Shown in pieces: positions 8,093 to 58,231 of a stretch of 64,000 nt of DNA. Within the stretch, counting starts at the first letter, position 1. Every line of letters starts with the position of its first letter. The notes under the pieces are model-generated. The model saw nothing but the letters and a program-made list of their open reading frames with translations. It did not search any database and was not told the DNA's origin. Source of the DNA: Candidatus Spongiihabitans sp. (lineage in GTDB: Bacteria > Pseudomonadota > Gammaproteobacteria > Arenicellales > Poriferihabitantaceae); NCBI GenBank assembly GCA_965261425.1, contig OZ253452.1, positions 2,275,892-2,339,891 on the forward strand. The letters are read 5' to 3'. Made by a program: the position numbers and the translations under genes.

Positions 8093-8135
8093 GCCTGAAC
8101 CTGAACCCGAGCCCAAATCAGGCATATAACGAAGA

Positions 8136-19831: not shown

Positions 19832-21718
19832 CCTGACTTCGACGGTTGGCTCCATGCAGATCGCCCACAGCCCAATAAACATGCGGGGGTGGTAGAGAAG
19901 TTGGTTTGTAGTGCCTATTTAAATATTTGTGTTGACTTCGGTGATCGAATGGTATAGACTCACCCCATGTTCGTTCGCGTTAAATCTACACCCAATAGCC
20001 CAAGACAATCGGTTCAGATTGTTTCATCTGTGCGCGTCGGCGATAAGGTCAAGCAAAAGATTGTCCGTTATATCGGCATTGCCATGGATGACGATGAGTT
20101 AGTGCGATTGAAAGAGCTGGCCGAAGTCGTCAAGGCGAAGCTTGAAGCCCAGCATCAGCCCAGCCTGTTTCCGCCTGAGACGGTTGCCAAACAGATGATT
20201 GAAGCGAAAGCAGCCAAAGCGTCTAAAGCCACCTTGAATGTTGATCTGAGGCAGATGGTGGAAGAACAGCGGGTGGTGCTGGGCATCCATGAAGTGTATG
20301 GCGAGGTCTATCGCCAGTTATCATTCGATACCCTGTTGTCGCAGAGGCGGTATCGTGCTTCCCATGAAGCCCTGTTCCATTGCGTGATGGCACGCATTGC
20401 TAACCCTAAAAGCAAGCGCGGCAGCGTGCAGCACTTGGAGCAGGACTTTGGCGTTTCTTTGTCCTTAGAGAAAGTTTATCGGATGATGGATCAGCTTGAC
20501 GATAACACCATCAGCCGGCTGCAAACGATGACCTGTGAAGGTACGCGATCCTTGTTGCCTGGTGCCCTGGATGTGTTGTTTTTTGATTGTACGACGCTCT
20601 ATTTTGAGTCTTTCAAGGAAGACGAATTAAAACAAAATGGCTACAGCAAGGACTGTAAATTTAATCAGCCGCAAGTATTGCTGGCTTTGCTGGTCACCCG
20701 CGAAGGTCTGCCGGTCGGCTACGAAGTGTTCCCCGGTGCTACTTTCGAGGGCCATAGCCTAATCAGCGTTTTGAAGACGATGCAAGCGCGCTATGATGTT
20801 AGGAAAATGATCTTTGTCGCTGATCGGGGCATGCTTAATGAAGACAATCTGCATGCCCTGGATGAGGCGGGCGCTTATTACATTGTTGGGGCGAAACTAA
20901 AACAATTGCCAAGTGCACTACAAACCAAAGTATTGGATAAATCAGCTTATCAGGCGCTCGATAAAGGCGCATCAAGCGCAGCCGAGCTGACGCACAAGAA
21001 GAGACGACTCATTGTCTCACATTGTCCAAAGCGTGCGGATAAAGATCAACATGACCGACAAAAGGCAGTCGATCGGCTCATCAAGAAAATCGGTAAAAGC
21101 CAGAATCCCAAGGACTTATTAAATAACTACGGCTATAAAAAATTTCTGATTATCAAGGGAAAGACTAGCCTGAGTATCAACCAAGATAAAATTGCTGCCG
21201 AAAGCCGCTGGGACGGACTGCATGGTGTCATCACCAATTTGCCCGATACGCCGCATCAGGAAGTGCTATCACACTATCGCGGCTTATGGCAGGTCGAGGA
21301 GAGTTTTCGAATCACTAAACATGACTTGAAAGTACGGCCTATCTACCACTGGACACCCTCAAGAGTGCGTGCCCACATTGCCATTTCGTTCATGGCTTTT
21401 GCCTGCATCAGACAGCTAATGTATCGAATCAAGCTACAACACAAAGCCTTATCCCCTGAGGTTATCCGTAATGCCTTGATTCATGTGCAACATAGTGTAT
21501 TCAAACACAAGCGCACCAAGAAAAGCTATGTCATGCCTTCTCAAATCAATCCAGAGGCAAAAAAAATCTATGCTGTGATGGGATTAAAAGCGACCACCAC
21601 AGCTTACCCACTGTACTAATTGACATAATCCTTCAATATCTAGGCATTTGTAGTGCCTAGGTATTTTTGTGTTTCTTTATAAATCAATAGTTTATGAATA
21701 TGAACCGTCGAAGTCAGG
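19832..21718 (+). mobile_element. IS1634-family (IS4-related) insertion sequence, 1887 bp, apparently intact
   Basis: It has perfect 16-bp terminal inverted repeats: CCTGACTTCGACGGTT at 19832-19847, and its complement at 21703-21718. It carries a single 550-aa transposase ORF and is flanked by a 68-bp direct repeat. Confidence 0.85.
19967..21619 (+). CDS. IS1634-family DDE transposase
   Basis: The N-terminus MFVRVKSTPNSPRQSVQIVSSVRVGDKVKQKIVRYIG and the ~550-aa size match the IS1634 group pattern. The DDE region includes FVADRGM and YRGLWQVEESFRITK. Confidence 0.8.
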   Translation: MFVRVKSTPNSPRQSVQIVSSVRVGDKVKQKIVRYIGIAMDDDELVRLKELAEVVKAKLEAQHQPSLFPPETVAKQMIEAKAAKASKATLNVDLRQMVEEQRVVLGIHEVYGEVYRQLSFDTLLSQRRYRASHEALFHCVMARIANPKSKRGSVQHLEQDFGVSLSLEKVYRMMDQLDDNTISRLQTMTCEGTRSLLPGALDVLFFDCTTLYFESFKEDELKQNGYSKDCKFNQPQVLLALLVTREGLPVGYEVFPGATFEGHSLISVLKTMQARYDVRKMIFVADRGMLNEDNLHALDEAGAYYIVGAKLKQLPSALQTKVLDKSAYQALDKGASSAAELTHKKRRLIVSHCPKRADKDQHDRQKAVDRLIKKIGKSQNPKDLLNNYGYKKFLIIKGKTSLSINQDKIAAESRWDGLHGVITNLPDTPHQEVLSHYRGLWQVEESFRITKHDLKVRPIYHWTPSRVRAHIAISFMAFACIRQLMYRIKLQHKALSPEVIRNALIHVQHSVFKHKRTKKSYVMPSQINPEAKKIYAVMGLKATTTAYPLY

Positions 21719-21786
21719 ATGAAGATTGGCCAAATGACGTTAAATGGTAATCAGAGCAAATGTGCAGTGTTTTTGAATGGAATGCT
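21719..21786 (+). repeat. Right copy of the 68-bp target-site duplication
   Basis: Identical to 19764-19831. Confidence 0.9.
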
Positions 21787-32637: not shown

Positions 32638-32718
32638 CACGAATATAGCACGCGAAAACGATTGATAAGGTTCCCCTCATCAATCGCTCATCCCCAGCAA
32701 CCCAGACCATTAAATAAT

Positions 32719-33822
32719 ATGTATTTTCTCGCTGAATATGGCTTGTTCCTAATCAAAGCCATGACCATTGTTGTTGCCATACTGATTGCCGTGGGTAGCC
32801 TTGTCGCCATCGTAATGCGGCACAAGAAAACCACAGAAAACCATCTGCAAGTTACCCATCTCAACACCCAGTATGAAGAGATGGAAAAAGTCATTGCCAT
32901 GGTAACATTAAGCGATGTTGGATTAAAACAGCAGGCAAAGGCGGACAAGAAAAAAGCCAAGCAGGACAAGAAAACGGCAAAAAAAGCCAAGCAGGACAAG
33001 AAAACGGCAAAAAAAGCCGGCAAGAAAGCGAAAAAAGGAGCTGATGATGAACCAGAAGGGCATAATAATCAGAAAAAACGGTTGTTTGTTATTGATTTTG
33101 ATGGTGACATACAAGCCAGTCAGGTAACAGCTCTGCGTCAGGAAATCAGTGCGGTTCTAACCGTTGCCAGCAAAGAGGATGAGGTGCTGGTTCGATTGGA
33201 AAGTGGCGGCGGGACGGTGCATGGTTATGGTTTGGCAGCCTCTCAATTACAGCGCATTCGTGATAACGATATTCCGCTTACTGTTGCGGTTGATAAAGTT
33301 GCTGCCAGTGGGGGCTATATGATGGCATGTGTGGCGAATAAAATCATTGCCGCGCCATTTTCCATCATCGGCTCGATTGGTGTACTCACACAAATACCTA
33401 ACCTGAACCGCTTGCTTAAAAAACATGATATTGATTTTGAACAATTATATGCGGGTGAATTCAAACGCACCTTGACACTTTTTGGAGAAAACACGGATAA
33501 GGGCAGGGCTAAAATGCAACAAGAGCTTGAGCAGACACATGAACGGTTTAAGGGTTTTATAAAAACCCAACGCCCTGATTTGGATGTCGATAAAGTGGCT
33601 ACCGGAGAACATTGGCTTGGCGCACAGGCATTGGAACTTGGCTTGGTTGACCAGTTGCAAACCAGCGACGATTATCTGATGTTATTACGCAACGATGCCG
33701 AGCTGATTCTGATTGAATACGCCACCGAGAAAACCATCATGGAAAAGCTATCGCAACTAATGAGTATGCAATGGCAACAGAATAAATTAGTTCAGGAAAC
33801 CAATCAGCCGTTGTTGATGTAG
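32719..33822 (+). CDS. sohB: S49-family periplasmic protease SohB
   Basis: The start is taken at MYFLAEYGLFLIKAMTIVVAIL (TM). The lysine-rich linker has a 30-bp tandem duplication (32950-33009). The S49 core is VDKVAASGGYMMA. Confidence 0.8.
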   Translation: MYFLAEYGLFLIKAMTIVVAILIAVGSLVAIVMRHKKTTENHLQVTHLNTQYEEMEKVIAMVTLSDVGLKQQAKADKKKAKQDKKTAKKAKQDKKTAKKAGKKAKKGADDEPEGHNNQKKRLFVIDFDGDIQASQVTALRQEISAVLTVASKEDEVLVRLESGGGTVHGYGLAASQLQRIRDNDIPLTVAVDKVAASGGYMMACVANKIIAAPFSIIGSIGVLTQIPNLNRLLKKHDIDFEQLYAGEFKRTLTLFGENTDKGRAKMQQELEQTHERFKGFIKTQRPDLDVDKVATGEHWLGAQALELGLVDQLQTSDDYLMLLRNDAELILIEYATEKTIMEKLSQLMSMQWQQNKLVQETNQPLLM

Positions 33823-40298: not shown

Positions 40299-41438
40299 AT
40301 GTCAAAGTCAGACTCCAAATCATCCGCTAAATCACCAGATACCGCTTCATCTTCGCCCCCGCGTGTTGCTAAACTCGGGGAACTGTTTAAGCGCAAACGA
40401 CGAAAAAATGAATGGAGAAAAGAGGATGTGGCTAAAACATTGCTGCTATCCGTGGAACAGATTGAGGCATTGGAAAATGATGAATATGATAAATTACCGG
40501 GAATCACCTACGTTGTTGGATATTGGCACAGCTATGCGAAATTGCTGAATATTGATATTTCAGAATCTATCGAATTTTACAAAAGCAATCTGGTAGCATC
40601 GCCTTTGGTCATTACCTTAGAAGCGAATCATCGTCGCGCCCATGGTCATCAGGAAAAATCCAGAAAACGCGCCGGGTTGGTTTTCATTATCTTGTCGGTG
40701 ATATTTTTGATCGGAATGTGGTATTGGCAAAATCCAGGTGATAACCCGCTGAATCAGTGGTTTGGTAATCATGTGAATCGTCATGCGGGGCCATTACCAA
40801 AAACGGGTATCGACGATGGCAATCAAGCTATCAACGGAGAGGGAATTTCAGTATCAGTTCCGGAATCGGAGCAGCCTTCTTTCGATGTATTACCCGAACC
40901 GAATTTCTTTGACGACCTAGCTGATACTGATACTGATATTGAAGAAAAATCGATTTCAGGGACGGCGGCCTCGGTGCAACAGTGGCAACAAGCAGCGCAA
41001 CAAATACCGATTGCGCCCAAGCAAGAAAACGAAAGCCACCAACCATTGAATGAACCTATAACCGAATCTGTGGTTGAAACACCTTTAACCGAACCTATAA
41101 CCGAATCTGTGGTTGAAACACCTTTAACCGAACCTATAACCGAATCTGTGGTTGAAACGCCTGCGAAGGGTTCTCCAAACTGGCTTTTTCTTAATGTAGA
41201 AAAGAAAAGTTGGATTGATGTGCGCGATGTTGTCGGTGAAAAACTGATTTATCGTATTGCCAATGAGGGGGAATCAATCGCATTGAAAGGGAGTCCGCCA
41301 TTTTATGTGTTTATCGAGTCGGTTGACGGTGTGCAGATTAAATATCTGGGCAAGGCGTTTCCTTTTGAAGCCGATGAAGATAGCATTTATGCGCGTTTTA
41401 GAGTGGGTCAGTTGGAAGGGGAAGCCAATGACCGCTAA
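40299..41438 (+). CDS. rodZ: Cytoskeleton protein RodZ (HTH + TM + DUF4115)
   Basis: It has an HTH region (LGELFKRKRRKNEWRKEDVAKTLLLSVEQIEALEND), a TM segment and a C-terminal DUF4115-like domain. It contains 39-bp x ~3 tandem repeats (41052-41164) encoding PLTEPITESVVET. Confidence 0.8.
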   Translation: MSKSDSKSSAKSPDTASSSPPRVAKLGELFKRKRRKNEWRKEDVAKTLLLSVEQIEALENDEYDKLPGITYVVGYWHSYAKLLNIDISESIEFYKSNLVASPLVITLEANHRRAHGHQEKSRKRAGLVFIILSVIFLIGMWYWQNPGDNPLNQWFGNHVNRHAGPLPKTGIDDGNQAINGEGISVSVPESEQPSFDVLPEPNFFDDLADTDTDIEEKSISGTAASVQQWQQAAQQIPIAPKQENESHQPLNEPITESVVETPLTEPITESVVETPLTEPITESVVETPAKGSPNWLFLNVEKKSWIDVRDVVGEKLIYRIANEGESIALKGSPPFYVFIESVDGVQIKYLGKAFPFEADEDSIYARFRVGQLEGEANDR

Positions 41439-46000: not shown

Positions 46001-46017
46001 CGACTTTCATAAATCTT

Positions 46018-47116
46018 GAATTCACATAATAAGTGCAACACTCCTAAGTCAGTCAAAGGGTACACTCGTACTCTTTTAACTGAACGGAAAAAAGCGGTGC
46101 GGCGAGCTCACCGAGCCGGAGTAAAACATGACGAGATATACCCATTTGACTGAACACGAAAGAGACCACATTTACCTCATGAATCAGCAGCATTGTACAC
46201 TGACAGAAATCGCTAAAGCCATGGGCAGAAGTTAAGTCAACCATCAGCCGTGAAATTAAACGCAATACCGGGGGCAACGGCTATCGCTACAAACAAGCCC
46301 ACCGCTTTGCCCAAACGAGGCATCAGCAAAAGCCCAAGCACATCAAACTCAATGACGAGTTAAAGCTTCGGCTCGGTGAGCCGTAGCTGGTGGGTCGTTA
46401 TATCGATACTTGCGCCATCAGGGTAAGAAATATCGCAAGCGTTATGGACAGAACGATTACCGCGGACGCATCCCCAATCGGGTTGATATTGCTGATAGAC
46501 CCAGTATAGTGGACAGTCGCTCGCGTATAGGTGATTGGGAAGCTGATTGTGTTATCGGTAAAGGTCGTCAAGGGGTGTTTGCCACCCTTGCTGAACGCAA
46601 AAGTAGGCTCTATCTCGCGCTTCGGACTAAGAACAAAACCGCACCGGTTTTTGCTCCTGCAAAACCGGCATACAGTACATCCCTGTACATAAAAAGAAAC
46701 CAACGCGGCTATACTCAGGTTGTTAGCGCATATGAAACAACATGTAATGACACTAACCTTTGATAACGGCAGAGAATTTTGTTGGCATAGTGAGCAGTTC
46801 GGCGAGCTCACCGACCCGTTGCCAAACAACTCGAGTGTGAAACTTATTTTGCTAAACCGTATCACTCTTGGGAGCGTGGCTTGAATGCCGAATAATCATC
46901 TGGCACAATGGCTTGCTCATACTTTTTGCTCAGGCAGTTTTTTCCAAAGAAGATGCCTTTGCATAAAGTCACCGAAAAAGAGCTGTTCAAAGCGACCGAT
47001 TTAATGAACAACCGACCTAGAAAATGTTTGGGGTATAACCCTTATGGAGGTCTTTTCCCGTGCAATGGGAATAGATCATAATATAAACCCGAGTGTTGCA
47101 CTTATGGGTTGAATTC
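46018..47116 (+). mobile_element. Degraded IS30-family insertion sequence (transposase pseudogene ~46128-47080 with stops and frameshifts)
   Basis: The imperfect 26-bp terminal inverted repeats match at 22/26: GAATTCACATAATAAGTGCAACACTC at 46018, and the complement of GAGTGTTGCACTTATGGGTTGAATTC at 47091. Across frames the fragments read MTRYTHLTEHERDHIYLM, RIGDWEADCVIGKG, TFDNGREF, PYHSWERGLN and LMNNRPRKCLGY. Confidence 0.8.
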
Positions 47117-47143
47117 GCCAATTACGAATTACGGGAGTCGTTT

Positions 47144-47239
47144 GAGACTATGCAAGAACCCAACATCCGTCATTCCCGCGTAGGAGACTGTGCAAAAATC
47201 CAACATTCGTCATTCCTGCGAAGCAGGAATCCAGTCAAA
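47144..47239 (+). repeat. Two tandem left-end fragments of the MITE family
   Basis: The fragments are GAGACTaTGCAAGAAcCCAACATCCGTCATTCCcGCG.. (47144) and GAGACTGTGCAAaAAtCCAACATtCGTCATTCCTGCGAAGCAGGAATCCAG (47184). Confidence 0.75.
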
Positions 47240-47342
47240 TAAATATTCTTATCAAAACCTAGCCGTCATTTTCAATTATCAATTATCAATTTTCAATTGC
47301 CAGAGAGTGGACAAACAAGTGCGTCTGTATTAAAGTCCAAGT

Positions 47343-47648
47343 ATGGCTTCTAATGCTCTCGCCTTTGATACACATAGTTTCGTCAAACGTATGACTGCGG
47401 TCGGTATGCCTGTGCAATAAGCCGAAGCACTTGCCGAATCTCAAGCTGACCTACTCAACGCCAACCTCGCCACCAAAACCGAATTAGCCAACACCGAAGC
47501 CACACTTAAAGCGGATATTGCCAACACCGAGTCCGTACTTAGAGCAGAAATTGCCAACACCGAAGCACACCTAATCAAGTGGATGGTTGGCTTAACAATG
47601 GGTGGCGTAGGAGTAATGGTTGCACTGTTCAGCTTTTTCCTCCGCTAA
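47343..47648 (+). pseudogene. Short DUF1640-like coiled-coil/TM-anchor gene with premature stop at codon 26
   Basis: It is collinear with 47811-48464. It has TAA at 47418-47420, where the paralogue has CAA. The rest of the frame stays open to 47648. Confidence 0.7.
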
Positions 47649-47810
47649 CAAATAATCATCAAATAATCATGGGCACACAATCATTTTTCGTCCATGATAC
47701 AGGGTGATTCTGACTCGGTGGGTGTTGCTCAATTAGAATGTTATTTAGCATGGTTAATTTTCAATTGCCAGAGAGTGGACAAACAACAGCGTCTGTATTA
47801 AAGTCCAAGT

Positions 47811-48464
47811 ATGGCTTCTAATGCTCTCGCCTTTGATACACACCATTTCGTCAAACTTATGACGGCAGTCGGTATGCCTGTACAACAAGCGGAAGCACTT
47901 GCCGAATCTCAAGCTGACCTACTCAACGCCAACCTCGCCACCAAAAACGAATTAGCCAACACCGAGGCCACACTTAAAGCAGAAATTGCCAAAACTAACG
48001 CAGAAATTGTCAACACCGAGGCCGCACTCAAAGCGGATATTGCCAACACCGAGTCCGTACTTAGAGCAGAAATTGCCAAAACTAACGCAGAAATTGTCAA
48101 CACCGAGGCCGCACTCAAAGCGGATATTGCCAACACCGAGTCCGTACTTAGAGCAGAAATTGCCAAAATCGAGGCCGCACTTAAAGTAGAAATTGCCAAC
48201 ACCGAGTCCGTACTTAGAGCAGAAATTGCCAAAACTAACGCAGAAATTGTCAACACCGAGGCAGCACTTAAAGTAGAAATTGCTAACACCGAGTCCACTC
48301 TTAGAGCAGACATTGCCAAAATCGAGTCCGCATTTAAAGTTGAAATTGCCAACACTAACGCAAAAATTGCCAACACCGAAGCACACCTAATCAAGTGGAT
48401 GGTTGGCTTAACAATGGGTAGCGTAGGAGTAATGGTTGCACTGTTCAGCTTTTTCCTCCTCTAA
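47811..48464 (+). CDS. DUF1640-like protein with an expanded coiled-coil repeat region and a C-terminal TM anchor
   Basis: The N-terminus FDTHHFVKLMTAVGMPVQQAEALAES...LATKNEL and the C-terminus HLIKWMVGLTMGSVGVMVALFSFFLL fit the bacterial DUF1640/CCDC90-like pattern. The central region consists of ANTExxLKAEI-type repeats. Confidence 0.65.
   Translation: MASNALAFDTHHFVKLMTAVGMPVQQAEALAESQADLLNANLATKNELANTEATLKAEIAKTNAEIVNTEAALKADIANTESVLRAEIAKTNAEIVNTEAALKADIANTESVLRAEIAKIEAALKVEIANTESVLRAEIAKTNAEIVNTEAALKVEIANTESTLRADIAKIESAFKVEIANTNAKIANTEAHLIKWMVGLTMGSVGVMVALFSFFLL
47955..48380 (+). repeat. Intragenic tandem repeats: 33-bp (11-aa) units with 24+30-bp variants, including a perfect 87-bp tandem duplication (47988-48074 = 48075-48161)
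   Basis: Read directly from the sequence. The short paralogue has only about three units. Confidence 0.9.
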
Positions 48465-48571
48465 CAAATAATCATCAAATAATCATGGGCACACAATCAT
48501 TTTTCGTCCATGATACAGGGTGATTCTGACTCGGTGGGTGTTGCTCAATTAGAATGCTATTTAGCATGGTT

Positions 48572-48641
48572 AATTGAAAATTGAGAATTGAGAATTGAAA
48601 ATTGAGAATTGAAAATTGGGAATTGAGAATTGACAATTGAG
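48572..48641 (+). repeat. Heptanucleotide tandem array, ~10 x AATTGAR
   Basis: The array reads aattgaa aattgag aattgag aattgaa aattgag aattgaa aattggg aattgag aattgac aattgag. Related arrays lie at 47270-47298 and 48716-48740 (opposite orientation). Heptamer doublets lie at 5286-5299, 12501-12521 and 47120-47133. Confidence 0.9.
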
Positions 48642-48653
48642 AAGCAACCTAGT

Positions 48654-48711
48654 CCGTCATTCCTGCGAAAGCAGGAACCCAGTAAAACAGCCAAACCCGC
48701 AAGGGTTTTCC
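48654..48711 (+). repeat. Internal fragment of the MITE family
   Basis: CCGTCATTCCTGCGAAAGCAGGAAcCCAGTAAAACAGCCAAACCCGCAAGGGTTTTCC is nearly identical to 59209-59266. Confidence 0.8.
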
Positions 48712-48747
48712 GGTTTCATTTTCAATTTTCAATTTTCCATTAACAAG

Positions 48748-48782
48748 AAGTCAAAAGGGGGCATTACTGCTTTGGGCTAACA
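48748..48782 (+). repeat. Junction repeat copy 3
   Basis: AAGTCAAAAGGGGgCATTACTGCTTTGGGCTAACA has one mismatch to 18421-18455. It lies 125 nt upstream of the aor operon. Confidence 0.85.
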
Positions 48783-48906
48783 AAAATCTGTGTGCGCTTG
48801 AATGTAAGCAAATAAAGTGGTAGTGTCGGTCAAAATAAATACGCTCAATGAGCTTGTTTCGATTTGTTGAGTCGCCTAGCAATCATCAATCTTGGAGAAT
48901 TAGGTT

Positions 48907-49383
48907 ATGCATCGATCACTTTATATTGACCCCGAAAAATGTACTGGCTGTTTGCAATGCGAAATGGCTTGTTCCTACGAAAACGAGGGCGTATTTAACC
49001 CAGCGAAATCGCGCATCAAGGTTTTTAACTTCCACGATGAAGGGCGGTTCGTGCCTTATACCTGTACCCAGTGTGATGAAGCATGGTGTTTACATGCCTG
49101 TCCGGTTGAAGCAATTACCATGAACAAGGAAACTGGGGCGATGGAGGTTGCCGATTCGGTTTGTGTTGGCTGTAAGGTTTGCACCATCGCCTGTCCATTT
49201 GGGACGGTCAATTACAATCAAGATACTGGCAAAGTAATCAAATGCGATTTATGTGGTGGCGACCCGCAATGCGTCGCTGCTTGTCCCACTGATGCGATTA
49301 CCTACGTGGATGCCGATGCAACCGGGCTCGAAAAAATGCGCTCATGGGCTGCAAAAACCGATAACTCAGCGTCAGCAATCTAG
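48907..49383 (+). CDS. aorA: Poly-ferredoxin-like electron-transfer subunit (four CxxCxxCxxxC(P) motifs), AorA-type
   Basis: The motifs are CTGCLQCEMAC, CTQCDEAWCLHACP, CVGCKVCTIACP and CDLCGGDPQCVAACP. It is named by analogy to the AorABC enzyme of Aromatoleum aromaticum. Confidence 0.7.
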   Translation: MHRSLYIDPEKCTGCLQCEMACSYENEGVFNPAKSRIKVFNFHDEGRFVPYTCTQCDEAWCLHACPVEAITMNKETGAMEVADSVCVGCKVCTIACPFGTVNYNQDTGKVIKCDLCGGDPQCVAACPTDAITYVDADATGLEKMRSWAAKTDNSASAI

Positions 49384-49393
49384 GAGGTTTATT

Positions 49394-51250
49394 ATGACTT
49401 GGGCGAAAAAAGTACTGCGTGTGGATTTAAGTAAAGGCACTGTTGCCGAAGAAGCACTGAACATGGATTGGGCGGCACAATACATCGGACAGCGGGGGCT
49501 TGGCACCCGCTATCTGGTTGAAGAAACCGACCCTCAATGCGATGCCCTTGGAGCGGACAATAGACTCATCTTTGCCACCGGTCCCCTGACTGGCACAACG
49601 GTGTCAACTGCTGGTCGCTATTCGGTCATCACCAAAAGCCCGTTGACCGGTGCGGTGGCGTGTTCAAATTCGGGTGGATTCATCGGTGCCGAGCTTAAAA
49701 TGGCGGGTTGGGACATGATCATTTTTCAAGGCAAGTCCAAATCGCCGGTGATGTTGCGAGTGGAAAATGAAGTTGCCGAATTGGTGCCTGCGGATGATTT
49801 ATGGGGTAAGACGGTTTGGGAAACCGATAAACTAATCCATCAGAAGTATCAGGATCCACAGATTAGAGTGGCTGCCGTGGGTCGTTCAGCCGAAGCAGGT
49901 TGCTTGTATGCTGGTATCATCAACGATTTGCATCGTGCCGCTGGTCGCTCTGGTGTAGGCACCGTGATGGCATCGAAAAACCTAAAAGCGGTTATGGTGC
50001 GCGGAACCCGTGGTGTGGGCAACATCAAGGACCCAATTCGGTTTATGAAAAGTGTTGCTGAGCAAAAGCAGGTATTGGCTGATAATGCGGTCACCGGTCA
50101 GGGATTGCCGGCACTGGGGACACAGGTGTTGATGAACGTCATCAACGAAGTGGGTGCGTTGCCAGCGAATAACATGCGTGATGTTCAGTTTGACGGTGCC
50201 AACAACATTTCTGGGGAAGCCATGCTTGAACCGCGTAAAAGTGACGGCAAGCCCAATTTGACCACGAATGCCGCATGCTTCAGTTGTACCATCGCTTGTG
50301 GTCGTATTTCGACGATTGATAAAGAACATTTCTCGATTGAGAACAAGCCACAGTACTGGGGTAATTCTGGCGGATTGGAGTACGAAGCGGCTTGGGCAAT
50401 GGGCGCGGATACGGGGGTCGATGATATTGATGCGATTACCTACACCAATTTTATCTGCAATGAAGATGGTTTCGATCCAATCTCATTTGGGGCGACTGTG
50501 GCAGCGGCAATGGAATTATTTGAACTCGGTGCGATTACCACCAAGCAAACCGATGGTATGGAGCTGGTTTTCGGCTCCGCTAAAGCCTTGACTTGGTGTG
50601 CCGAGAAGGTAGCAACGGGTGATGGCTTTGGAAAAGATTTGGGGCTTGGCTCCAAGCGGTTATGCGAAAAATATGGTCATCCCGAATTGTCAATGACGGT
50701 CAAAGGGCAGGAATTTCCGGCTTATGACCCCCGCGGTATTCAAAGCATGGGGCTGACCTATGCCACCGCAAATCGGGGTGCTTGCCATTTGCGAGGTTAT
50801 ACCGTGGCTGCCGAAATACTCGGCATTCCCGAAAAAACCGACCCGCTGGTGACTGAAGGCAAGGCGGGCTTAGTGAAAGCGTTTCAGGATGCCACTGCCG
50901 CAGTTGATTCCATGGGGCTGTGCGTATTCACCACATTTGCTTGGACGCTGGATAATATGGCACCGCAAATTGATGCCGCCTGTGAAGGCGATTGGAGTGT
51001 GGAGCGATTGCTCGAATCTGGGGAGCGAATTTGGAATCTGGAACGGGATTACAATTTGAAAGCCGGGCTGACTGGTGCCGATGACACTTTGCCATCCAGA
51101 TTGCTGAAAGAGGCTGCCAAGACCGGTCCCGCCAAAGGCAAGGTCTGTAATTTGGGCGACATGTTGCCAGAATACTATTCGTTGCGGGGCTGGACTACGG
51201 ATGGCGAATTGACCGATGATGTTAGAACCAAGTTTACCTTGCCGGCTTAA
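49394..51250 (+). CDS. aorB: Tungsten-pterin aldehyde:ferredoxin oxidoreductase family catalytic subunit, AorB-type
   Basis: The start is taken at MTWAKKVLRVDLSKGTV (ATG 49394, 6 nt after GGAGG). It shows the AFOR N-terminal domain pattern, a CFSCTIACGR cluster-binding motif, and a later GLCVF cysteine. The listed ORF start at 49253 lies inside aorA. Confidence 0.85.
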   Translation: MTWAKKVLRVDLSKGTVAEEALNMDWAAQYIGQRGLGTRYLVEETDPQCDALGADNRLIFATGPLTGTTVSTAGRYSVITKSPLTGAVACSNSGGFIGAELKMAGWDMIIFQGKSKSPVMLRVENEVAELVPADDLWGKTVWETDKLIHQKYQDPQIRVAAVGRSAEAGCLYAGIINDLHRAAGRSGVGTVMASKNLKAVMVRGTRGVGNIKDPIRFMKSVAEQKQVLADNAVTGQGLPALGTQVLMNVINEVGALPANNMRDVQFDGANNISGEAMLEPRKSDGKPNLTTNAACFSCTIACGRISTIDKEHFSIENKPQYWGNSGGLEYEAAWAMGADTGVDDIDAITYTNFICNEDGFDPISFGATVAAAMELFELGAITTKQTDGMELVFGSAKALTWCAEKVATGDGFGKDLGLGSKRLCEKYGHPELSMTVKGQEFPAYDPRGIQSMGLTYATANRGACHLRGYTVAAEILGIPEKTDPLVTEGKAGLVKAFQDATAAVDSMGLCVFTTFAWTLDNMAPQIDAACEGDWSVERLLESGERIWNLERDYNLKAGLTGADDTLPSRLLKEAAKTGPAKGKVCNLGDMLPEYYSLRGWTTDGELTDDVRTKFTLPA

Positions 51251-51253
51251 ATT

Positions 51254-52549
51254 ATGGCGACTGACTGTGCCACGAAGTATCTCATCATCGGTTCCGGTCC
51301 GGCAGGGGTGGTTGCGGCTGAGACGCTGCAAAAACTGGATGCGACCGCTGAAATAACCCTGATTGGCGATGAGCCTGAACCGCCCTATTCGAGAATGGCA
51401 ATTCCTTATTTGCTGATCAATAATATTGATGAGTCGGGGACTTATCTGCGTAAGCAACCAGAGCACTATTCGGGCAAGGGCATTGAGGTGGTGGTCGATC
51501 GGGTTGAGTCTGTGGATGTTGCCACAAAGACAGTGTCCCTGTCGCAAGGCGGTTCGCGCCAATACGACAAGTTGCTTGTAGCGACCGGTTCACGACCGCT
51601 CACGCCACCGATTCGTGGCATTGAGCATAAAAAGGTGACCAGTTGCTGGACGCTGGAAGATGCCAGAAAAATTGCCAACGGTATCAAACCGGGTGCGCCG
51701 GTGGTGCTGATTGGTGCGGGTTTTATCGGTTGTATTATTTTGGAGGCACTGGTTGCGTCAGGGGCAAACCTGACTGTTGTTGAAATGGGCAATCGCATGG
51801 TGCCCAGAATGCTGGATGAAACCTGCGGTACCTTGCTTGAGACGTGGTGCCAGCAAAAAGGCGTGAACGTCATGACCGCTTGTCAGGTTGATGCGATTGA
51901 ACCATTTGGCGATAACCTGCGGGTTAAAATTAGCGGCTCTGGACAAGTTGAAAAGGCGGGAGTTGAAACGGCGATGGTCGAAGCCGAGTTGGTTATATCT
52001 GCGGCTGGAGTACAGGCAAATGCGGCGTTTTTAGCAGACTGCGGGGTTGCGCTTACCAACGGCGCGGTGGTTATTGATGAGTATATGTGTTCTTCGGTCG
52101 CCGATATTTATGCGGCTGGAGATGTGGCTTGTGGCAAGGATTTTTCCACCGGCGAATACAGCGTGCAAGCGATACAGCCGACTGCTGTCGAGCATGGTCG
52201 GGTGGCAGCGCATAATATGTTTAAGCATGGCTCGGTGCGTCATCAGGGCAGTGTGCTGATGAACGTGTTGGATACCATTGGATTGATTTCAACCTCATAC
52301 GGTCAATGGCAAGGTGTTGAAGGCGGGCAGAGTGCGAATTTGCTGGATCGAGATCATTTCCGTTACATCCAGCTTCAATTTGATGGCGAGCGATTGGTGG
52401 GTGCGAATACATTAGGGTTCACCCAGCATATTGGGGTCTTGCGTGGGTTGCTACAAGGTCGCTTCAAATTGGGCAAATGGAAGGACAAACTGATGGACAA
52501 TCCATTGTTGCTGACGGAGGCATATCTTGCTGCGACTCAGGGTAGTTAA
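51254..52549 (+). CDS. aorC: FAD/NAD(P)-binding pyridine-nucleotide-disulfide-type oxidoreductase, AorC-type
   Basis: It has two dinucleotide folds (IIGSGPAGVVAAE and VLIGAGFIGCIILEAL) and starts 4 nt after aorB. Confidence 0.75.
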   Translation: MATDCATKYLIIGSGPAGVVAAETLQKLDATAEITLIGDEPEPPYSRMAIPYLLINNIDESGTYLRKQPEHYSGKGIEVVVDRVESVDVATKTVSLSQGGSRQYDKLLVATGSRPLTPPIRGIEHKKVTSCWTLEDARKIANGIKPGAPVVLIGAGFIGCIILEALVASGANLTVVEMGNRMVPRMLDETCGTLLETWCQQKGVNVMTACQVDAIEPFGDNLRVKISGSGQVEKAGVETAMVEAELVISAAGVQANAAFLADCGVALTNGAVVIDEYMCSSVADIYAAGDVACGKDFSTGEYSVQAIQPTAVEHGRVAAHNMFKHGSVRHQGSVLMNVLDTIGLISTSYGQWQGVEGGQSANLLDRDHFRYIQLQFDGERLVGANTLGFTQHIGVLRGLLQGRFKLGKWKDKLMDNPLLLTEAYLAATQGS

Positions 52550-55723: not shown

Positions 55724-55827
55724 CAGCGTCCGCGATCCTCTCGGACATTTTCCTCAACCGCCGACCTGTTCAGGTATCAGAAAGGCAGGGGAATCTTTAA
55801 CCCCGCACTTTTCTGGGCTTTACTTTT

Positions 55828-56303
55828 CCTGACTTCGACGGTTGGCTCCATGCAGATCGCCCACAGCCCAATAAACATACGGGGGTAGTAGAGAAACTAT
55901 TTTGTAGTGCCTACTTAAATATTTATGTTGGCTTAGTCGATGACACAGTGTAAGCTCACCCCATGTTCGTTCGCGTCAAAACTACACCCAACAGCCCAAG
56001 ACAATCGGTTCAGATTGTCTCATCCGTTCGCTTCGGCGATAAGGTCAAGCAAAAGATTGTGCGCCATGTCGGCATTGCCATGGATGACGATGAATTGGCG
56101 CAGTTGAAGATTTTGGCCGAAGTCATCAAGGCGAAGATTGAAGCCCAGCCTGTTTTCTCCTGAGGTGGTCGCCAAACAGATGGTTGAAGCGAAAGCGGGA
56201 AAAGCGTCTAAAGCCGCTTTGAATGTTGACCTGATGCAGATGGTGGAAGAACAGCGTGTGGTGCTGGGCATTCACGAGGTGTATGGCGAGGTCTATCGTC
56301 AGT
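55828..56303 (+). mobile_element. 5' fragment of a second, diverged IS1634-family copy (transposase frameshifted and truncated)
   Basis: It has the same left inverted repeat, CCTGACTTCGACGGTT, at 55828. It is collinear with 19832-20312, with substitutions and an indel near 56150. Homology ends at 56303. Confidence 0.85.
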
Positions 56304-56560: not shown

Positions 56561-58231
56561 ATGATTGATTATAACGATTCCAACCAACGTACTATCGCAG
56601 AATTTGACTGGCCGTTTCACACCGCTCTTGATGCACACAACCGCTGGGTGAAACTAGGTCAGTGCATTCCATGGGATGGGTTAGCACAGGGCTATCATAA
56701 AAGCCTCTCGTCAAAGCGGGGTCGGGCAGCAAAAGATGCTCGTTTAGTCATCGGTGCGGTGATCATCAAACACAAACTAGGGTTGTCTGATCGTGAAACG
56801 GTGAGTCAGATTCAGGAGAATCCGTATCTGCAATACTTTGTCGGGCTTGCCGGTTATCAAAGATCAGTCCCGTTTGTACCCTCGTTGCTGGTTGAAGTGC
56901 GCAAACGGATGGGGGATACTGTTTTTGAAGTGTTCCATCAAGCGATTATTGGTGCTGTGGAAAAGGCGCAGGTCGTGCCGCAACGCAGCGTTAAGGATGG
57001 TTTGAAGGCATCCACACAGACCAACAAGTCGGGTGATGAATCAGAGCCAGAGTCCGTGCCAGAGTCCGTGCCAGAGTCGAAACCAGAACCAGAATCCAAT
57101 CAAGACCCACAAGGGGAGGATAATTCCCCAATTTCGCCTGCCACCACTGTGGAAGCACCCAGCCACGAAGGTAAGTTGATAATCGATGCGACTGTGGCAG
57201 AGCAAGCGATACGGTATCCCACGGATTTAAGTTTACTGAATGAAGCGCGTGAGATGGCGGAACGGATTATTGACGAATTGTATCCACACACGGAGTTCAG
57301 TCAGAAACCACGCACCTATCGTCGCCAAGCACGTAAAGCTTTTCTCGGGTTGGTCAAACAGCGTCGTCCCAAGCGTCAAGCGACCCAACGAGCGATCAAG
57401 CAACAACTGCAATACTTGCGGCGCAATTTTGGTCATATTGAGTGTTTAATGGATTGTTTCCCGATGGGCACGGCGTTGCCTTTGTCACGCAGGCTGCTAT
57501 ACCACTACTGGGTCATTCAGCATGTCTATGCACAGCAATGGCAGATGTACCGTAACAAAAGCCGTCGCTGTGATAATCGGATTGTGAGCATTCATCAACC
57601 GTATGTGCGTCCGATTGTGCGAGGTAAGCAAGGTAAGTCGGTTGAGTTTGGTTCGAAGTTGAGCGTGAGTTTAACGGCACACGGGTTATCCCGAGTTGAT
57701 CATTTAAGTTGGGATGCGTTTCATGAGGGGCATGATTTGCAGGGTCAGGTTGAGCGTTACCATGAACGTTATGGTTGCTACCCCGAAAGCGTCATCGGTG
57801 ATCCGATATATGGTAGTCGAGAGAACCGGCATTACTTGAAAGGATTGGGCATCTATTTTTCGGGCAAGCCATTAGGCAGACCCAAACAGGTAACAGAAGC
57901 GAATCGGGAGGTGTTGAAGCAATTAAAAGCCCAACGCCGGGCGGATTACCTACAACGGATTCCAATAGAAGGCAAATTTGGTCAGGCAAAGAACGGTTAT
58001 CGGCTGAATTACATCCGTGCCAAACGAGCAGACACTTCGGTTGCATGGATCAACAGCATTTTCCTAGTCATGAACCTGCTCATCCTGCTGAAGGTCTTTT
58101 TTGTGCCCAAAATAAGGCGACTAATAGGGTCGATAACGAACACTGGGCGACACCAATTACGATTGGACGGGTACGGATCATGCCAATTGCTTGGCTGGAA
58201 CAGATTTGAATATCCAAAACCGACTTTGTGA
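56561..58231 (+). CDS. IS5/IS1182-type DDE transposase
   Basis: The N-terminal InsH-like region is NRWVKLGQCIPWD...LVIGAVIIKHKLGLSDRETVSQIQENPYLQYFVGL. The C-terminal DDE_Tnp_1-like region ends ..EGKFGQAKNGYRLNYIRAKRADT. An internal low-complexity tract, PESVPESVPESKPEPE, is present. I could not define the element ends. Confidence 0.7.
   Translation: MIDYNDSNQRTIAEFDWPFHTALDAHNRWVKLGQCIPWDGLAQGYHKSLSSKRGRAAKDARLVIGAVIIKHKLGLSDRETVSQIQENPYLQYFVGLAGYQRSVPFVPSLLVEVRKRMGDTVFEVFHQAIIGAVEKAQVVPQRSVKDGLKASTQTNKSGDESEPESVPESVPESKPEPESNQDPQGEDNSPISPATTVEAPSHEGKLIIDATVAEQAIRYPTDLSLLNEAREMAERIIDELYPHTEFSQKPRTYRRQARKAFLGLVKQRRPKRQATQRAIKQQLQYLRRNFGHIECLMDCFPMGTALPLSRRLLYHYWVIQHVYAQQWQMYRNKSRRCDNRIVSIHQPYVRPIVRGKQGKSVEFGSKLSVSLTAHGLSRVDHLSWDAFHEGHDLQGQVERYHERYGCYPESVIGDPIYGSRENRHYLKGLGIYFSGKPLGRPKQVTEANREVLKQLKAQRRADYLQRIPIEGKFGQAKNGYRLNYIRAKRADTSVAWINSIFLVMNLLILLKVFFVPKIRRLIGSITNTGRHQLRLDGYGSCQLLGWNRFEYPKPTL

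What the first reader, a model, noticed from the sequence alone, without database searches (positions are those of the whole stretch)
47283..48577. Tandem DUF1640-like paralogues: one short with a nonsense codon, one doubled in length by coiled-coil repeat expansion; possibly leaderless
Two units share the same upstream sequence (TTTTCAATTGCCAGAGAGTGGACAAACA..GCGTCTGTATTAAAGTCCAAGTATG). They also share the same 113-nt downstream sequence (47648-47760 versus 48465-48577, one mismatch).
- Unit 1 encodes 101 codons but has CAA->TAA at codon 26.
- Unit 2 encodes 217 aa. The extra length comes entirely from ANTExxLKAEI-type units of 33 bp, with 24+30-bp variants giving 11- and 18-residue periodicity. 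It includes a perfect 87-bp tandem duplication, which implies very recent slippage or recombination.
- Both end in a hydrophobic anchor (KWMVGLTMG.VGVMVALFSFF).
- There is no Shine-Dalgarno sequence. TGGACA-17 nt-TAAAGT ends 7 nt before the ATG of unit 2 (47776-47804), so the mRNA could be leaderless.

A membrane-anchored stalk of variable length in a repeat-rich hotspot looks like a contingency locus with unknown function.
Basis: partly seen in the sequence, partly recalled or inferred. Interest (0 to 1): 0.6.

Follow-up and report, generated by a model that had tools for sequence, protein, structure and literature searches.

The report
Tandem DUF1640 stalk-protein gene cassettes
The locus holds two tandem genes, one dead and one expanded, for a small membrane-anchored coiled-coil protein of the MCUR1/CCDC90 (DUF1640) family. 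They belong to a multi-copy family in sponge-symbiont bacteria whose members differ almost only in how many 11- and 7-residue stalk modules they carry. The bacterial function is unknown, so the interest is moderate.

Summary
Window 47288-48583 carries two head-to-tail cassettes with shared 5' and 3' flanks. Unit 1 would encode 101 codons but has TAA at codon 26. Unit 2 encodes 217 aa. Both match Pfam PF07798 above its cut-off.

The proteins have an FDTH head, an L-A-T-K-N-E beta-layer neck motif, a coiled-coil stalk and a C-terminal membrane helix. The extra length of unit 2 is eight 11-residue and four 7-residue modules (33 and 21 bp). It includes a perfect period-87 tract at 47978-48168.

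The cassette is a multi-copy family in sponge-symbiont Gammaproteobacteria (Ca. Poriferihabitaceae). One 2.77-Mb genome has at least 12 copies, all of different length (95-235 aa), often in tandem. Head and anchor are under purifying selection (dN/dS 0.26 and 0.17).

A TGGACA-17-TAAAGT promoter ends 6 nt before the ATG. Its hexamers are invariant in 29 copies while the spacer and the 6-nt gap vary, which supports but does not prove a leaderless mRNA.

The "contingency locus" reading is not supported. All repeat units are in frame, most are imperfect, the product probably faces the cytoplasm, and no population data were available.

Verdict: a new member of a known family with a notable length-ladder expansion and unknown function.

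The parts
47139..47262 (+). Two tandem 40-nt REP-like elements (..GTCATTCC(C/T)GCG..) followed by a conserved spacer (..AATATTCTTATCAAAACCTAGCCGTCATT). Together they form the distal part of the upstream module shared by most cassettes.
   Evidence: family D7; alignment of 33 upstream regions. The REP hairpin also occurs at 48656-48677 and 59213-59234.
47268..47298 (+). Heptamer array (ATTTTCA/ATTATCA, i.e. TCAATTn), 4.4 copies, directly upstream of the -35 hexamer of unit 1.
   Evidence: Paralogous cassettes carry 3-13 copies at the same place.
47308..47336 (+). Promoter-like site of unit 1: TGGACA-17 nt-TAAAGT, ending 6 nt before the ATG.
47343..47648 (+). Unit 1, a DUF1640 pseudogene of 101 codons with TAA at codon 26 (47418-47420). 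Its stalk has two 11-residue modules.
   Evidence: An intact 101-aa copy with the same module pattern exists at L018.
47649..47759 (+). Conserved 3' flank of unit 1. It holds an 11-nt CAAATAATCAT repeat (2 copies), a 9-bp stem-loop (47666-47674 pairing with 47690-47698) and the ATGCTA..TAGCAT palindrome.
47776..47804 (+). Promoter-like site of unit 2: TGGACA-17 nt-TAAAGT. The predicted transcription start is at or next to A47811 of the ATG.
   Evidence: In 29 copies the hexamers are invariant while the spacer and the 6-nt gap vary; Fisher p=0.0016 on columns.
47811..48464 (+). Unit 2, an intact 217-aa DUF1640/CCDC90-like protein. Head: residues 1-41. Neck L-A-T-K-N-E: residues 42-47 (47934-47951). 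Stalk modules: residues 49-186 (47955-48368). Membrane helix: residues 196-217 (48396-48461).
47955..48368 (+). Modular stalk repeat of ten 33-bp (11-residue) and four 21-bp (7-residue) units in the order H h H H h H H H H h H H H h (H = 11-residue module, h = 7-residue module). It contains a perfect period-87 tract at 47978-48168.
48465..48575 (+). Conserved 3' flank of unit 2, with the same elements as unit 1 (stem-loop 48482-48490 pairing with 48506-48514).
48571..48745 (-). Inverted upstream module without a gene: a heptamer array (AATTGAG, 10.3 copies, 48572-48643), a REP hairpin (48656-48677) and a second, forward heptamer array (48714-48741). Read on the minus strand, 48630-48690 matches the REP-plus-heptamer module found upstream of the L005 and L012 cassettes.
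   Evidence: (pairs I2-I11).
46006..47128 (+). IS30-like remnant with 38-nt imperfect inverted ends and a frameshifted transposase that retains an HTH_38 fragment. It is context, not part of the cassette.
   Evidence: (pair I1). It sits at the same place after der in Ca. Spongiihabitans.

Best explanation
**What it is**

The locus is a tandem pair of self-contained DUF1640/CCDC90-like gene cassettes. Each cassette has a heptamer array, a sigma-70-type promoter, the gene and a conserved 3' flank. The host is a sponge-associated gammaproteobacterium close to Ca. Spongiihabitans.

**The protein**

Each gene encodes a small tail-anchored inner-membrane protein with four parts:
- an FDTH head of about 41 residues;
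- a beta-layer neck motif (L-A-T-K-N-E);
- an alpha-helical coiled-coil stalk built only from 11-residue modules (A-[NK]-T-E-x-x-L-[KR]-x-[ED]-I) and 7-residue modules (A-[KN]-T-[NK]-x-[EK]-I);
- a glycine-rich C-terminal membrane helix.

By analogy with solved family members it most likely forms a homotrimer. Head and stalk most likely lie in the cytoplasm.

**How it evolves**
- In-frame gain and loss of 33-bp and 21-bp modules, and of higher-order 87- and 153-bp blocks, changes only stalk length. The mechanism is slippage or unequal recombination within and between cassettes.
- Exchange between cassettes keeps head, anchor, promoter and 3' flank nearly identical.
- The result is a within-genome ladder of paralogues that place the same head from a few nm to about 23 nm from the membrane.
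- In this window unit 2 is a long, recently expanded, functional copy. Unit 1 is a short copy recently killed by a CAA-to-TAA substitution.
- The promoter geometry predicts a leaderless or nearly leaderless transcript.

**Shown versus inferred**
- Shown: sequence architecture, family membership, modular length variation, purifying selection and the promoter conservation pattern.
- Inferred: trimer state, cytoplasmic topology, leaderless start and any role as a spacer or scaffold.
- The cellular partner of the head is unknown.
For: **Family membership and architecture**
- Pfam PF07798 scores 52.6 bits against a cut-off of 33.5.
- A head-plus-neck profile hits PDB 6h9m (human CCDC90B head) at E=5.8e-9. 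It also hits 6h9l, an 'uncharacterized protein' with ATKEDIEALRK 11-residue repeats.
- The window protein has L-A-T-K-N-E where PMC4786415 places the DUF1640 beta-layer motif [aliphatic]-A-T-K-[polar]-[DE], at the start of the stalk.
- An AlphaFold2 monomer model of paralogue P0001 gives helix 10-19 plus one continuous helix 24-125, with pLDDT 91.6.
- Hydrophobic periodicity of the stalk is 3.63, which equals 138 residues over 38 turns for ten hendecads plus four heptads.

**Modular length variation**
- Thirty copies parse completely into 179 11-mers and 83 7-mers. I11 and E4 are invariant and L7 is present in 177 of 179.
- OZ253450.1 has 12 copies with 12 different lengths (95-235 aa). CBDHDW010000013.1 spans 83-213 aa.
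- Tandem arrays of 2-4 copies occur in L002, L003, L004, L007, L008 and L010.
- The tract 47978-48168 is exact at period 87.
- The two units are mosaic: their 5' halves differ at 16 of 240 positions and their 3' halves at 5 of 217.

**Selection and intactness**
- dN/dS is 0.26 for the head and 0.17 for the anchor.
- Of 32 copies surveyed, two are clearly dead: unit 1 of the window (TAA at codon 26) and L002_3903 (ATG changed to ATA).

**Promoter**
- Among 29 copies the -35 hexamer never varies and the -10 hexamer varies once (to TATAGT). Fifteen of the 23 other columns vary.
- The gap to the ATG is 6 nt in 29 of 32 copies.
- Divergent relatives L013, L024, L037 and L038 also place a -10-like hexamer 6-8 nt before the ATG (L021 similar but with a weak hexamer).

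**Topology and context**
- The yeast homologues Put6 and Put7 are matrix-facing membrane proteins (PMC7519068).
- The genes stand alone, with no conserved neighbour, in six different contexts.
Against: - Nothing here gives direct evidence of function, oligomeric state, topology or expression.
- The AlphaFold model is a monomer made without an alignment, and its fold search was uninformative.
- Lack of a Shine-Dalgarno sequence is common in this window, so it adds little to the leaderless argument.
- Magnetococcales and phage homologues do have AGGAGG- or GGAG-type ribosome-binding sites.
- The paralogues are not independent lineages, so the dN/dS values and the column statistics overstate the effective sample size.
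- All-different lengths could arise from neutral repeat turnover without any selection for a ladder.
- The 217-aa product is absent from the protein collection, although the der and ferredoxin proteins of the same 2.92-Mb contig are present. The gene may be uncalled in, or differ in, the public annotation or assembly.
Confidence: 0.72

Rival explanations
1. This is a classical contingency locus. Hypermutable repeats in a surface-exposed stalk would change its length at high frequency within a clonal population, varying antigenicity or reach.
For: - There is a perfect 191-nt period-87 tract.
- Module number and order differ in nearly every paralogue.
- Heptamer simple-sequence arrays of 3-13 copies lie next to the promoters.
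- The host is a symbiont exposed to an animal host and to phages.
Against: - All units are 21 or 33 bp, so no frameshift switching is possible.
- Most units are only 74-90% alike, which disfavours high-rate slippage.
- There is no signal peptide. The only hydrophobic segment is the last 22 residues, and eukaryotic homologues face the matrix, so surface exposure is unlikely.
- The inactivating change is a point mutation.
- No read-level or strain-level data were available, and the orthologous position in Ca. Spongiihabitans has no cassette.
Confidence: 0.1
2. This is a selfish or neutral repeat cassette. The DUF1640 units would be passengers of a recombinogenic, IS- and REP-rich hotspot in a symbiont genome under relaxed selection. 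Copy number and length variety would then be by-products with no adaptive role, and many copies would be decaying.
For: - Cassettes sit among IS elements and REP-like repeats. A roughly 1.9-kb DDE_Tnp_1/DUF772 IS is adjacent in L001, L004, L006, L007, L009 and L017.
- Cassettes occupy non-orthologous positions.
- Pseudogenes exist: window unit 1, L002_3903 (ATG changed to ATA), the truncated P0008 and the degenerate L020.
- A gene-less upstream module lies at 48571-48745.
Against: - dN/dS is 0.17-0.26 in head and anchor.
- About 29 of 32 ORFs are intact.
- Promoter hexamers are invariant while neighbouring positions vary.
- Core positions of 262 modules are strictly kept.
- The family is widespread, with 12,286 clusters at 50% identity.
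Confidence: 0.12
3. This is a membrane-level exclusion or defence function related to mobile elements. On this view the family is a small membrane protein of the kind temperate phages carry as accessory 'moron' genes, for example for superinfection exclusion, and the symbiont has amplified it.
For: - Full-architecture homologues occur in temperate phages. In Bordetella phages vB_BaM-IFTN4/5/6 the gene is a lone opposite-strand gene in the early or immunity region. In Sodalis phiSG1 it sits next to a DNA invertase. A Liberibacter phage also has one.
- Homologues also occur on plasmids.
- One chromosomal homologue lies in a Fic/HipA/NERD island.
Against: - No PADLOC model matches above noise; the best hit has E=2.9e-4 on the coiled coil only.
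- Only 7 of 50,697 phage records carry a homologue.
- Eukaryotic members are metabolic or ion-channel scaffolds.
- No defence genes flank the cassettes in the window or in the sponge-symbiont loci.
Confidence: 0.05

Closest known systems
Human CCDC90B and MCUR1 (Pfam PF07798; PDB 6h9m), and yeast Put6/Put7
   Same: They share the Pfam family and the FDTH head, which is sequence-related (profile E=5.8e-9 to 6h9m). They also share the neck at the head-stalk junction, the coiled-coil stalk and the C-terminal membrane helix. The yeast members have their bulk on the matrix side, which corresponds to the bacterial cytoplasm.
   Different: The eukaryotic proteins carry a mitochondrial targeting sequence, and MCUR1 has an extra membrane helix. 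Their stalks are longer and non-modular, and they occur as single or few copies. Their roles as an MCU scaffold or in proline and amino-acid metabolism have no known bacterial counterpart.
DUF1640-related protein in PDB 6h9l ('uncharacterized protein'; taken from memory to be the prokaryotic homologue of Adlakha et al. 2019, Structure 27:464; only that paper's title was seen here and the link to 6h9l was not checked)
   Same: Its stalk is made of tandem 11-residue repeats (ATKEDIEALRK, several copies). From memory of that paper, the family has a head-neck-stalk-anchor design and forms trimers.
   Different: In 6h9l each repeat carries the A-T-K-x-D beta-layer motif. Here only the neck does, and the modules are A-N-T-E-x-x-L-K-x-E-I mixed with 7-residue units. 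No multi-copy length ladder was found in the 13 searchable papers that mention DUF1640.
Trimeric autotransporter adhesins (YadA-type)
   Same: They have a head-neck-stalk-anchor layout, beta-layer necks (PMC4786415) and stalk length variation through repeats.
   Different: They are secreted and anchored in the outer membrane by a beta-barrel. They are surface adhesins and are unrelated in sequence to the head and anchor here.
Gram-positive surface proteins with in-frame coiled-coil or tandem repeats (streptococcal M protein, alpha C protein)
   Same: In-frame repeat gain and loss changes protein length without loss of frame. This comparison rests on my own knowledge.
   Different: They are surface-exposed, have signal peptides and LPXTG anchors, and their variation is allelic and driven by immunity. 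They are not homologous.
Tail-anchored E. coli proteins YqjD/ElaB/YgaM (DUF883) and eukaryotic golgins
   Same: These are functional analogies only, from my own knowledge. They have a C-terminal membrane anchor and a cytoplasmic coiled coil that presents an N-terminal binding region at a distance from the membrane.
   Different: They belong to different families, have no modular length series and were not tested here.

Membership tests
Pfam PF07798 (CCDC90-like / DUF1640) | Score above the Pfam gathering threshold | tested here: met
   Unit 2 scores 52.6 bits and unit 1 (read through its stop) 34.8 bits, against a cut-off of 33.5. All 87 homologues found carry PF07798.
Pfam PF07798 (CCDC90-like / DUF1640) | N-terminal head domain related to the CCDC90B head (FDTH...G(F/M)...QAE) | tested here: met
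   A head-plus-neck profile (A1, window sequence first) hits 6h9m at E=5.8e-9, aligned over [23 protein letters not shown]. F8, G21 and A27 are invariant.
Pfam PF07798 (CCDC90-like / DUF1640) | Beta-layer neck motif [aliphatic]-A-T-K-[polar]-[DE] at the start of the stalk (PMC4786415) | tested here: met
   L-A-T-K-N-E occupies residues 42-47. Whether it actually forms a beta-layer in a trimer cannot be tested here.
Pfam PF07798 (CCDC90-like / DUF1640) | Coiled-coil stalk followed by a C-terminal transmembrane anchor | tested here: met
   Periodicity is 3.63 and core positions I, T/I and L are conserved. AlphaFold2 gives a continuous helix. The last 22 residues, WMVGLTMGSVGVMVALFSFFLL, are hydrophobic.
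Pfam PF07798 (CCDC90-like / DUF1640) | Homotrimeric assembly | not testable with these tools
   Only a monomer prediction was available.
Contingency (phase- or length-variable) locus | Tract of identical tandem units prone to slippage | tested here: inconclusive
   One perfect 191-nt period-87 tract is present. The other units are only 74-90% alike.
Contingency (phase- or length-variable) locus | Repeat-number variation at the same locus within a population or between strains | not testable with these tools
   No reads were available. The orthologous der-downstream position in Ca. Spongiihabitans strains lacks the cassette, and the metagenome scan found only one distant locus.
Contingency (phase- or length-variable) locus | Repeat change switches expression or alters an exposed surface product | tested here: not met
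   All units are multiples of 3 bp. There is no signal peptide, and the tail-anchored design together with matrix-facing homologues points to a cytoplasmic stalk. The inactivation is a point mutation.
Leaderless mRNA | Promoter placed so that transcription starts at the A of the start codon | tested here: met
   The -10 hexamer ends 6 nt before the ATG in 29 of 32 copies. The hexamers are invariant while the gap sequence is variable. L013, L024, L037 and L038 show similar geometry (L021 similar but with a weak hexamer). This is pattern-based evidence only.
Leaderless mRNA | Experimentally mapped 5' end at the AUG | not testable with these tools
   No transcriptome data were available.
Leaderless mRNA | ATG start (not GTG or TTG) and no usable ribosome-binding site | tested here: met
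   All intact copies start with ATG, and the 6-nt gap cannot hold a Shine-Dalgarno sequence. A Shine-Dalgarno sequence is, however, rare in this window in general.

The most novel reading that the evidence does not exclude
The cassette family could be a built-in length-diversity system. Modular 33- and 21-bp repeats plus exchange among a dozen or more near-identical cassettes would give each cell, and the population, a graded set of self-sorting homotrimeric stalks. These stalks would hold one conserved head at distances from about 2 nm to about 23 nm from the cytoplasmic face of the membrane. Such a ruler or tether series for an unknown partner would be selected in sponge symbionts, and it might reveal the ancestral role of the MCUR1/CCDC90 family. 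Its expression from leaderless mRNAs would also be unusual for Gammaproteobacteria.
Probability: 0.15. Interest if true: 0.7.

Novelty: new member of a known kind. Interest (0 to 1): 0.42.

Why it matters
- DUF1640 is a large family: 12,286 clusters at 50% identity match the head profile. It includes the human mitochondrial proteins MCUR1 and CCDC90B, whose molecular role is still debated, and no bacterial function is known.
- A natural series of paralogues identical in head and anchor, but spanning 11 to 156 residues of strictly modular stalk, is a ready-made experimental length series. It could be used to ask what the head binds and whether distance from the membrane matters.
- The cassette also offers a clean candidate for leaderless expression in a gammaproteobacterium.
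- It is an example of concerted evolution combined with modular repeat turnover in symbiont genomes.
- If the ladder is only neutral repeat churn, the finding is an ordinary repeat-rich paralogue family.

Tried and rejected
**Searches for the same locus elsewhere**
1. Exact look-ups of the 217-aa protein, Der and the ferredoxin found no indexed contig. One search showed that Der and the ferredoxin do exist on a 2,917,534-nt contig, while the 217-aa product does not.
2. A homologue search with the downstream ferredoxin, meant to find the orthologous locus, gave nothing closer than 87% identity.
3. The Der search found the syntenic region in four Ca. Spongiihabitans contigs (ndk, rlmN, rodZ, hisS, yfgM-like, bamB, der, IS30 remnant). 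No DUF1640 cassette follows der there, so allelic length polymorphism could not be tested.
4. The metagenome-contig scan returned one distant locus only.

**Structure and RNA**

5. A Foldseek search of the AlphaFold2 monomer model against the PDB was uninformative, because the model is essentially one long helix.
6. A single-sequence search of PDB sequences gave only spurious cyanovirin repeat matches. The profile search was needed.
7. Rfam found nothing credible in 46900-49000.
8. The 3' stem-loop is conserved but has only one compensatory pair and no U-tract, so it is not claimed to be a terminator.

**Function and annotation**

9. PADLOC and NCBIfam gave only sub-threshold coiled-coil noise.
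10. Cluster look-ups gave no organism names.
11. Minus-strand ORFs 47909-48394 and 47952-48386 are rejected as repeat artefacts. They lie antisense to a gene under purifying selection and have no family match.
12. Six chromosomal neighbourhoods showed no conserved neighbour gene.
13. The paper by Adlakha et al. 2019 could not be read. Statements about it rest on its title and my memory.
Full report
**Observation**

Direct-repeat analysis finds two units. The 5' parts (47288-47527 and 47756-47995) differ at 16 of 240 positions. The 3' parts (47544-47760 and 48360-48576) differ at 5 of 217.

Unit 1 (ATG 47343, stop 47646-47648) would encode 101 codons but carries TAA at codon 26 (47418-47420). 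Unit 2 has CAA there, and every other copy examined has Gln. Unit 2 (47811-48464) is an intact 217-aa ORF.

Tandem Repeats Finder reports periods of 21, 33, 66, 87 and 153 bp inside unit 2. Identity at a lag of 87 nt is exact for 104 nt from 47978, so 47978-48168 is a perfect 2.2-copy tract.

Two details need correction. The short unit is 21 bp (7 residues), so the 18-residue period is 7+11. The shared upstream sequence also extends further, into a heptamer array and a REP-like element.

**What the genes encode**

Both units match Pfam PF07798 (CCDC90-like, formerly DUF1640) above the gathering score of 33.5 bits: 52.6 bits for unit 2 and 34.8 bits for unit 1 read through its stop. All 87 homologues from the large protein collection carry the same domain.

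A profile of the first 59 residues, built from 18 diverse family members, hits the solved head of human CCDC90B (6h9m) at E=5.8e-9. It also hits 6h9l, an 'uncharacterized protein' whose stalk is made of ATKEDIEALRK 11-residue repeats.

Hartmann et al. (PMC4786415) describe DUF1640 as integral membrane proteins of prokaryotes and mitochondria. These proteins carry the beta-layer motif [aliphatic]-A-T-K-[polar]-[DE] at the start of their C-terminal stalk. The window protein has L-A-T-K-N-E at residues 42-47.

The last 22 residues (WMVGLTMGSVGVMVALFSFFLL) are the only hydrophobic segment. An AlphaFold2 monomer model of the 126-aa paralogue P0001 gives a short helix (residues 10-19) and one continuous helix (24-125) at pLDDT 91.6. 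Being one long helix, it gave no useful fold match.

**Stalk anatomy**

The unit 2 stalk parses completely into ten 11-residue and four 7-residue modules, in the order HhHHhHHHHhHHHh (H = 11-residue module, h = 7-residue module). Unit 1 has two 11-residue modules. The 116-residue difference is exactly 8x11 + 4x7.

Across 30 copies there are 179 11-mers and 83 7-mers.
- The 11-mer consensus is A-[NK]-T-E-[SA]-x-L-[KR]-x-[ED]-I. E4 and I11 are invariant and L7 is present in 177 of 179.
- The 7-mer consensus is A-[KN]-T-[NK]-x-[EK]-I.
- Core spacings are 3-4-4 and 3-4, which are hendecad and heptad patterns.

Hydrophobic periodicity in the window stalk is 3.63 residues, as expected for 138 residues over 38 turns. 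At 0.15 nm per residue the 151-residue rod is about 23 nm long.

**The family**

A scan of one genome per species found 27 loci. Most lie in sponge-symbiont MAGs: Ca. Spongiihabitans sp. OZ253450.1, a Ca. Poriferihabitaceae bacterium (CBDHDW010000013.1), and contigs binned as 'Pseudohongiella'. The family belongs to Arenicellales, Gammaproteobacteria.

The window shares IS elements (92% identity) and REP-like repeats with these genomes. Its Der protein is 85% identical to that of OZ253450.1, and gene order from ndk to der is conserved. Its Der and ferredoxin proteins occur exactly on a 2,917,534-nt contig in the collection.

Six-frame extraction found 33 copies. OZ253450.1 has 12 copies of 95, 126, 137, 148, 166, 170, 184, 195, 202, 217, 224 and 235 aa. 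The Poriferihabitaceae genome has 12 copies spanning 83-213 aa. Arrays of 2-4 tandem copies of unequal length are common (L002, L003, L004, L007, L008, L010).

Near-identical paralogues differ by whole modules. One example is the pattern HHhHHHhHhHHhh against HHHhHHHhHhHHHhh.

Head and anchor are nearly invariant and under purifying selection: mean pairwise dN/dS is 0.26 and 0.17. These copies are not independent lineages, so the values are indicative only.

Other lineages have their own length-variable sets built from different 11- and 7-residue modules, including tandem pairs. Examples are the Magnetococcales loci and the ADIEKLRLATQ family on a 2.49-Mb contig. A head-plus-neck profile matches 12,286 clusters at 50% identity, mostly 80-190 aa long. 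The family is therefore common, and the window's 217-aa copy is at the long end.

**Expression signals**

The scan tool finds TGGACA-17-TAAAGT at 47308-47336 and 47776-47804. The second site ends 6 nt before the ATG, which puts the canonical start position on A47811.

In 29 copies the -35 hexamer never varies. The -10 hexamer varies once, towards consensus (TATAGT). Fifteen of the 23 spacer and gap columns vary, with up to 13 minor alleles per column. At column level this contrast gives Fisher p=0.0016. The gap is 6 nt in 29 of 32 copies.

Divergent relatives with unrelated upstream sequence show the same geometry. L013, L024, L037 and L038 place a -10-like hexamer 6-8 nt before the ATG; in L021 the hexamer 7 nt before the ATG is weak. 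Magnetococcales and phage homologues instead have AGGAGG- or GGAG-type ribosome-binding sites.

This supports a leaderless or near-leaderless transcript but is not proof. The absence of a Shine-Dalgarno sequence adds little, because only 5 of 32 long ORFs in the window show a strong one.

The 3' flank is conserved among most copies. It contains a 9-bp stem-loop with one compensatory pair and no U-tract, and an 11-nt repeat present in 1-3 copies. Its role is unknown. Rfam has no match.

**Surroundings**

The cassettes lie between der and a ferredoxin/aldehyde-ferredoxin-oxidoreductase operon. They sit in a stretch filled by an IS30-like remnant, REP-like hairpins and heptamer arrays.

Heptamer (TCAATTn) arrays of 3-13 copies precede many cassettes, and in the 64-kb window they occur only here. 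Positions 48571-48745 form an inverted upstream module without a gene. Both units end at the same truncated 3' junction (..GCATGGTTAATT), abutting a heptamer. These features suggest recombination at the heptamers (inference).

A roughly 1.9-kb DDE_Tnp_1/DUF772 IS is adjacent to cassettes in many loci. The der-downstream position in four Ca. Spongiihabitans contigs has the IS30 remnant but no cassette. Cassette positions are therefore not conserved, and allelic polymorphism could not be tested.

**How it most likely works**

*Shown.* The gene belongs to the DUF1640 family and has a head-neck-stalk-anchor sequence architecture. Stalk length is set by the number of in-frame modules. Modules are gained and lost frequently relative to the divergence of the rest of the gene. 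Head, anchor and promoter are conserved by selection and by exchange between copies; the two window units are mosaic.

*Inferred.*
- The proteins form parallel homotrimers. This rests on family precedent and on my memory of Adlakha et al. 2019, which could not be read.
- The proteins are tail-anchored, with head and stalk in the cytoplasm. There is no signal peptide, the single C-terminal helix has Lys on its N-side, and the yeast homologues are matrix-facing.
- Unequal lengths force trimers to self-sort.
- The set acts as spacers or scaffolds that hold a conserved head at graded distances from the membrane.

The partner of the head and the physiological role remain unknown.

**Rivals**
- A classical contingency locus is unlikely. 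The repeats are in-frame and mostly imperfect, the product is probably not exposed, and the gene was inactivated by a point mutation.
- A neutral, decaying cassette family is contradicted by purifying selection, mostly intact ORFs and invariant promoter hexamers. It cannot, however, be excluded as the explanation for the variety of lengths.
- A mobile-element-related exclusion or defence role is a weak lead. It comes from homologues with the full architecture in a few temperate phages and plasmids. PADLOC gives no support.

**Verdict**

The leaderless idea is strengthened but not proven, and the contingency interpretation is not supported.

The locus is a new member of a known family. The notable feature is at family level: a dozen or more strictly modular, length-graded paralogues per small symbiont genome. 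None of the 13 papers in the searchable library that mention DUF1640 describes such a ladder.

Noticed in passing
window 46006-47128; L033-L036 about 7456-8584: An IS30-like remnant lies directly after der in the window. It has 38-nt imperfect inverted ends and a broken transposase with an HTH_38 fragment. The same remnant sits at the same position in four Ca. Spongiihabitans contigs (88-95% nt identity, against about 80% for the flanking housekeeping genes). L033, L034 and L035 hold a second copy 4-5 kb further on.
   Followed up: partly
window 47139-47220, 48656-48677, 59213-59234, about 5170-5230: A REP-like dispersed hairpin element (GTCATTCCTGCGAAAGCAGGAAT, with a GAAA loop) is shared with the sponge-symbiont MAG loci. 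Several IS copies are inserted next to it.
   Followed up: partly
window 47268-47298, 48572-48643, 48714-48741: Heptamer arrays (TCAATTn / AATTGAR) occur only around the DUF1640 cassettes within the 64-kb window. Their copy number varies from 3 to 13 upstream of paralogous cassettes. Their position at about -40 and further upstream could affect promoter strength or serve as recombination sites.
   Followed up: partly
window 47649-47670 and 48465-48486: An 11-nt repeat (CAAATAATCAT, 2 copies) lies directly after both stop codons. Paralogues have 1, 2 or 3 copies, for example 3 in L016 and 1 in L010_4523.
   Followed up: no
window 19831-21719 and 56561-58231: Two apparently intact IS elements are present. 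The first has a DDE_Tnp_1 transposase of 550 aa and is 92% identical to copies in the Poriferihabitaceae MAG. The second has a DUF772 + DDE_Tnp_1_2 transposase of 556 aa. A partial copy of the first lies at 55824-56303.
   Followed up: partly
window 41052-41162, 32950-33036, 13209-13244, 57046-57078: There are other near-perfect tandem repeats with unit lengths that are multiples of 3: 39 bp x 2.8 copies (98%), 30 bp x 2.3-3, and 12 bp x 3 (two arrays). At least the first two lie inside long ORFs (40299-41438 and 32662-33822).
   Followed up: no
window 47811-48464 versus the public protein collection: The Der and ferredoxin proteins of the window are present exactly on a 2,917,534-nt contig (NCBI+ENA), but the 217-aa DUF1640 product is not. 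The gene may be uncalled there, or the repeat may differ in the public assembly.
   Followed up: partly
L031 3986-4249 (Bordetella phage vB_BaM-IFTN6); L032 3992-4273 (Sodalis phage phiSG1): Temperate phages carry short DUF1640 homologues (87 and 93 aa) with the full head, LATK neck and membrane-helix architecture, and with ordinary ribosome-binding sites. The Bordetella gene is a lone opposite-strand gene in the early region. The Sodalis gene overlaps the end of a DNA invertase gene.
   Followed up: partly
window 48907-52549: The operon for ferredoxin, aldehyde:ferredoxin oxidoreductase and a pyridine-nucleotide-disulphide oxidoreductase has its closest ferredoxin homologues (84-87%) in Plasticicumulans, Competibacteraceae and Beggiatoa. 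It is absent downstream of der in Ca. Spongiihabitans, so it may have been acquired horizontally.
   Followed up: no
L039 4001-4456 and 4773-5384: An unrelated symbiont-type genome (2.49-Mb contig) has its own tandem pair and at least five DUF1640 paralogues of different length, built from ADIEKLRLATQ and ADIAEVK modules. Gene callers extend several of them about 34 codons upstream of the conserved MEALAFDTH start.
   Followed up: partly
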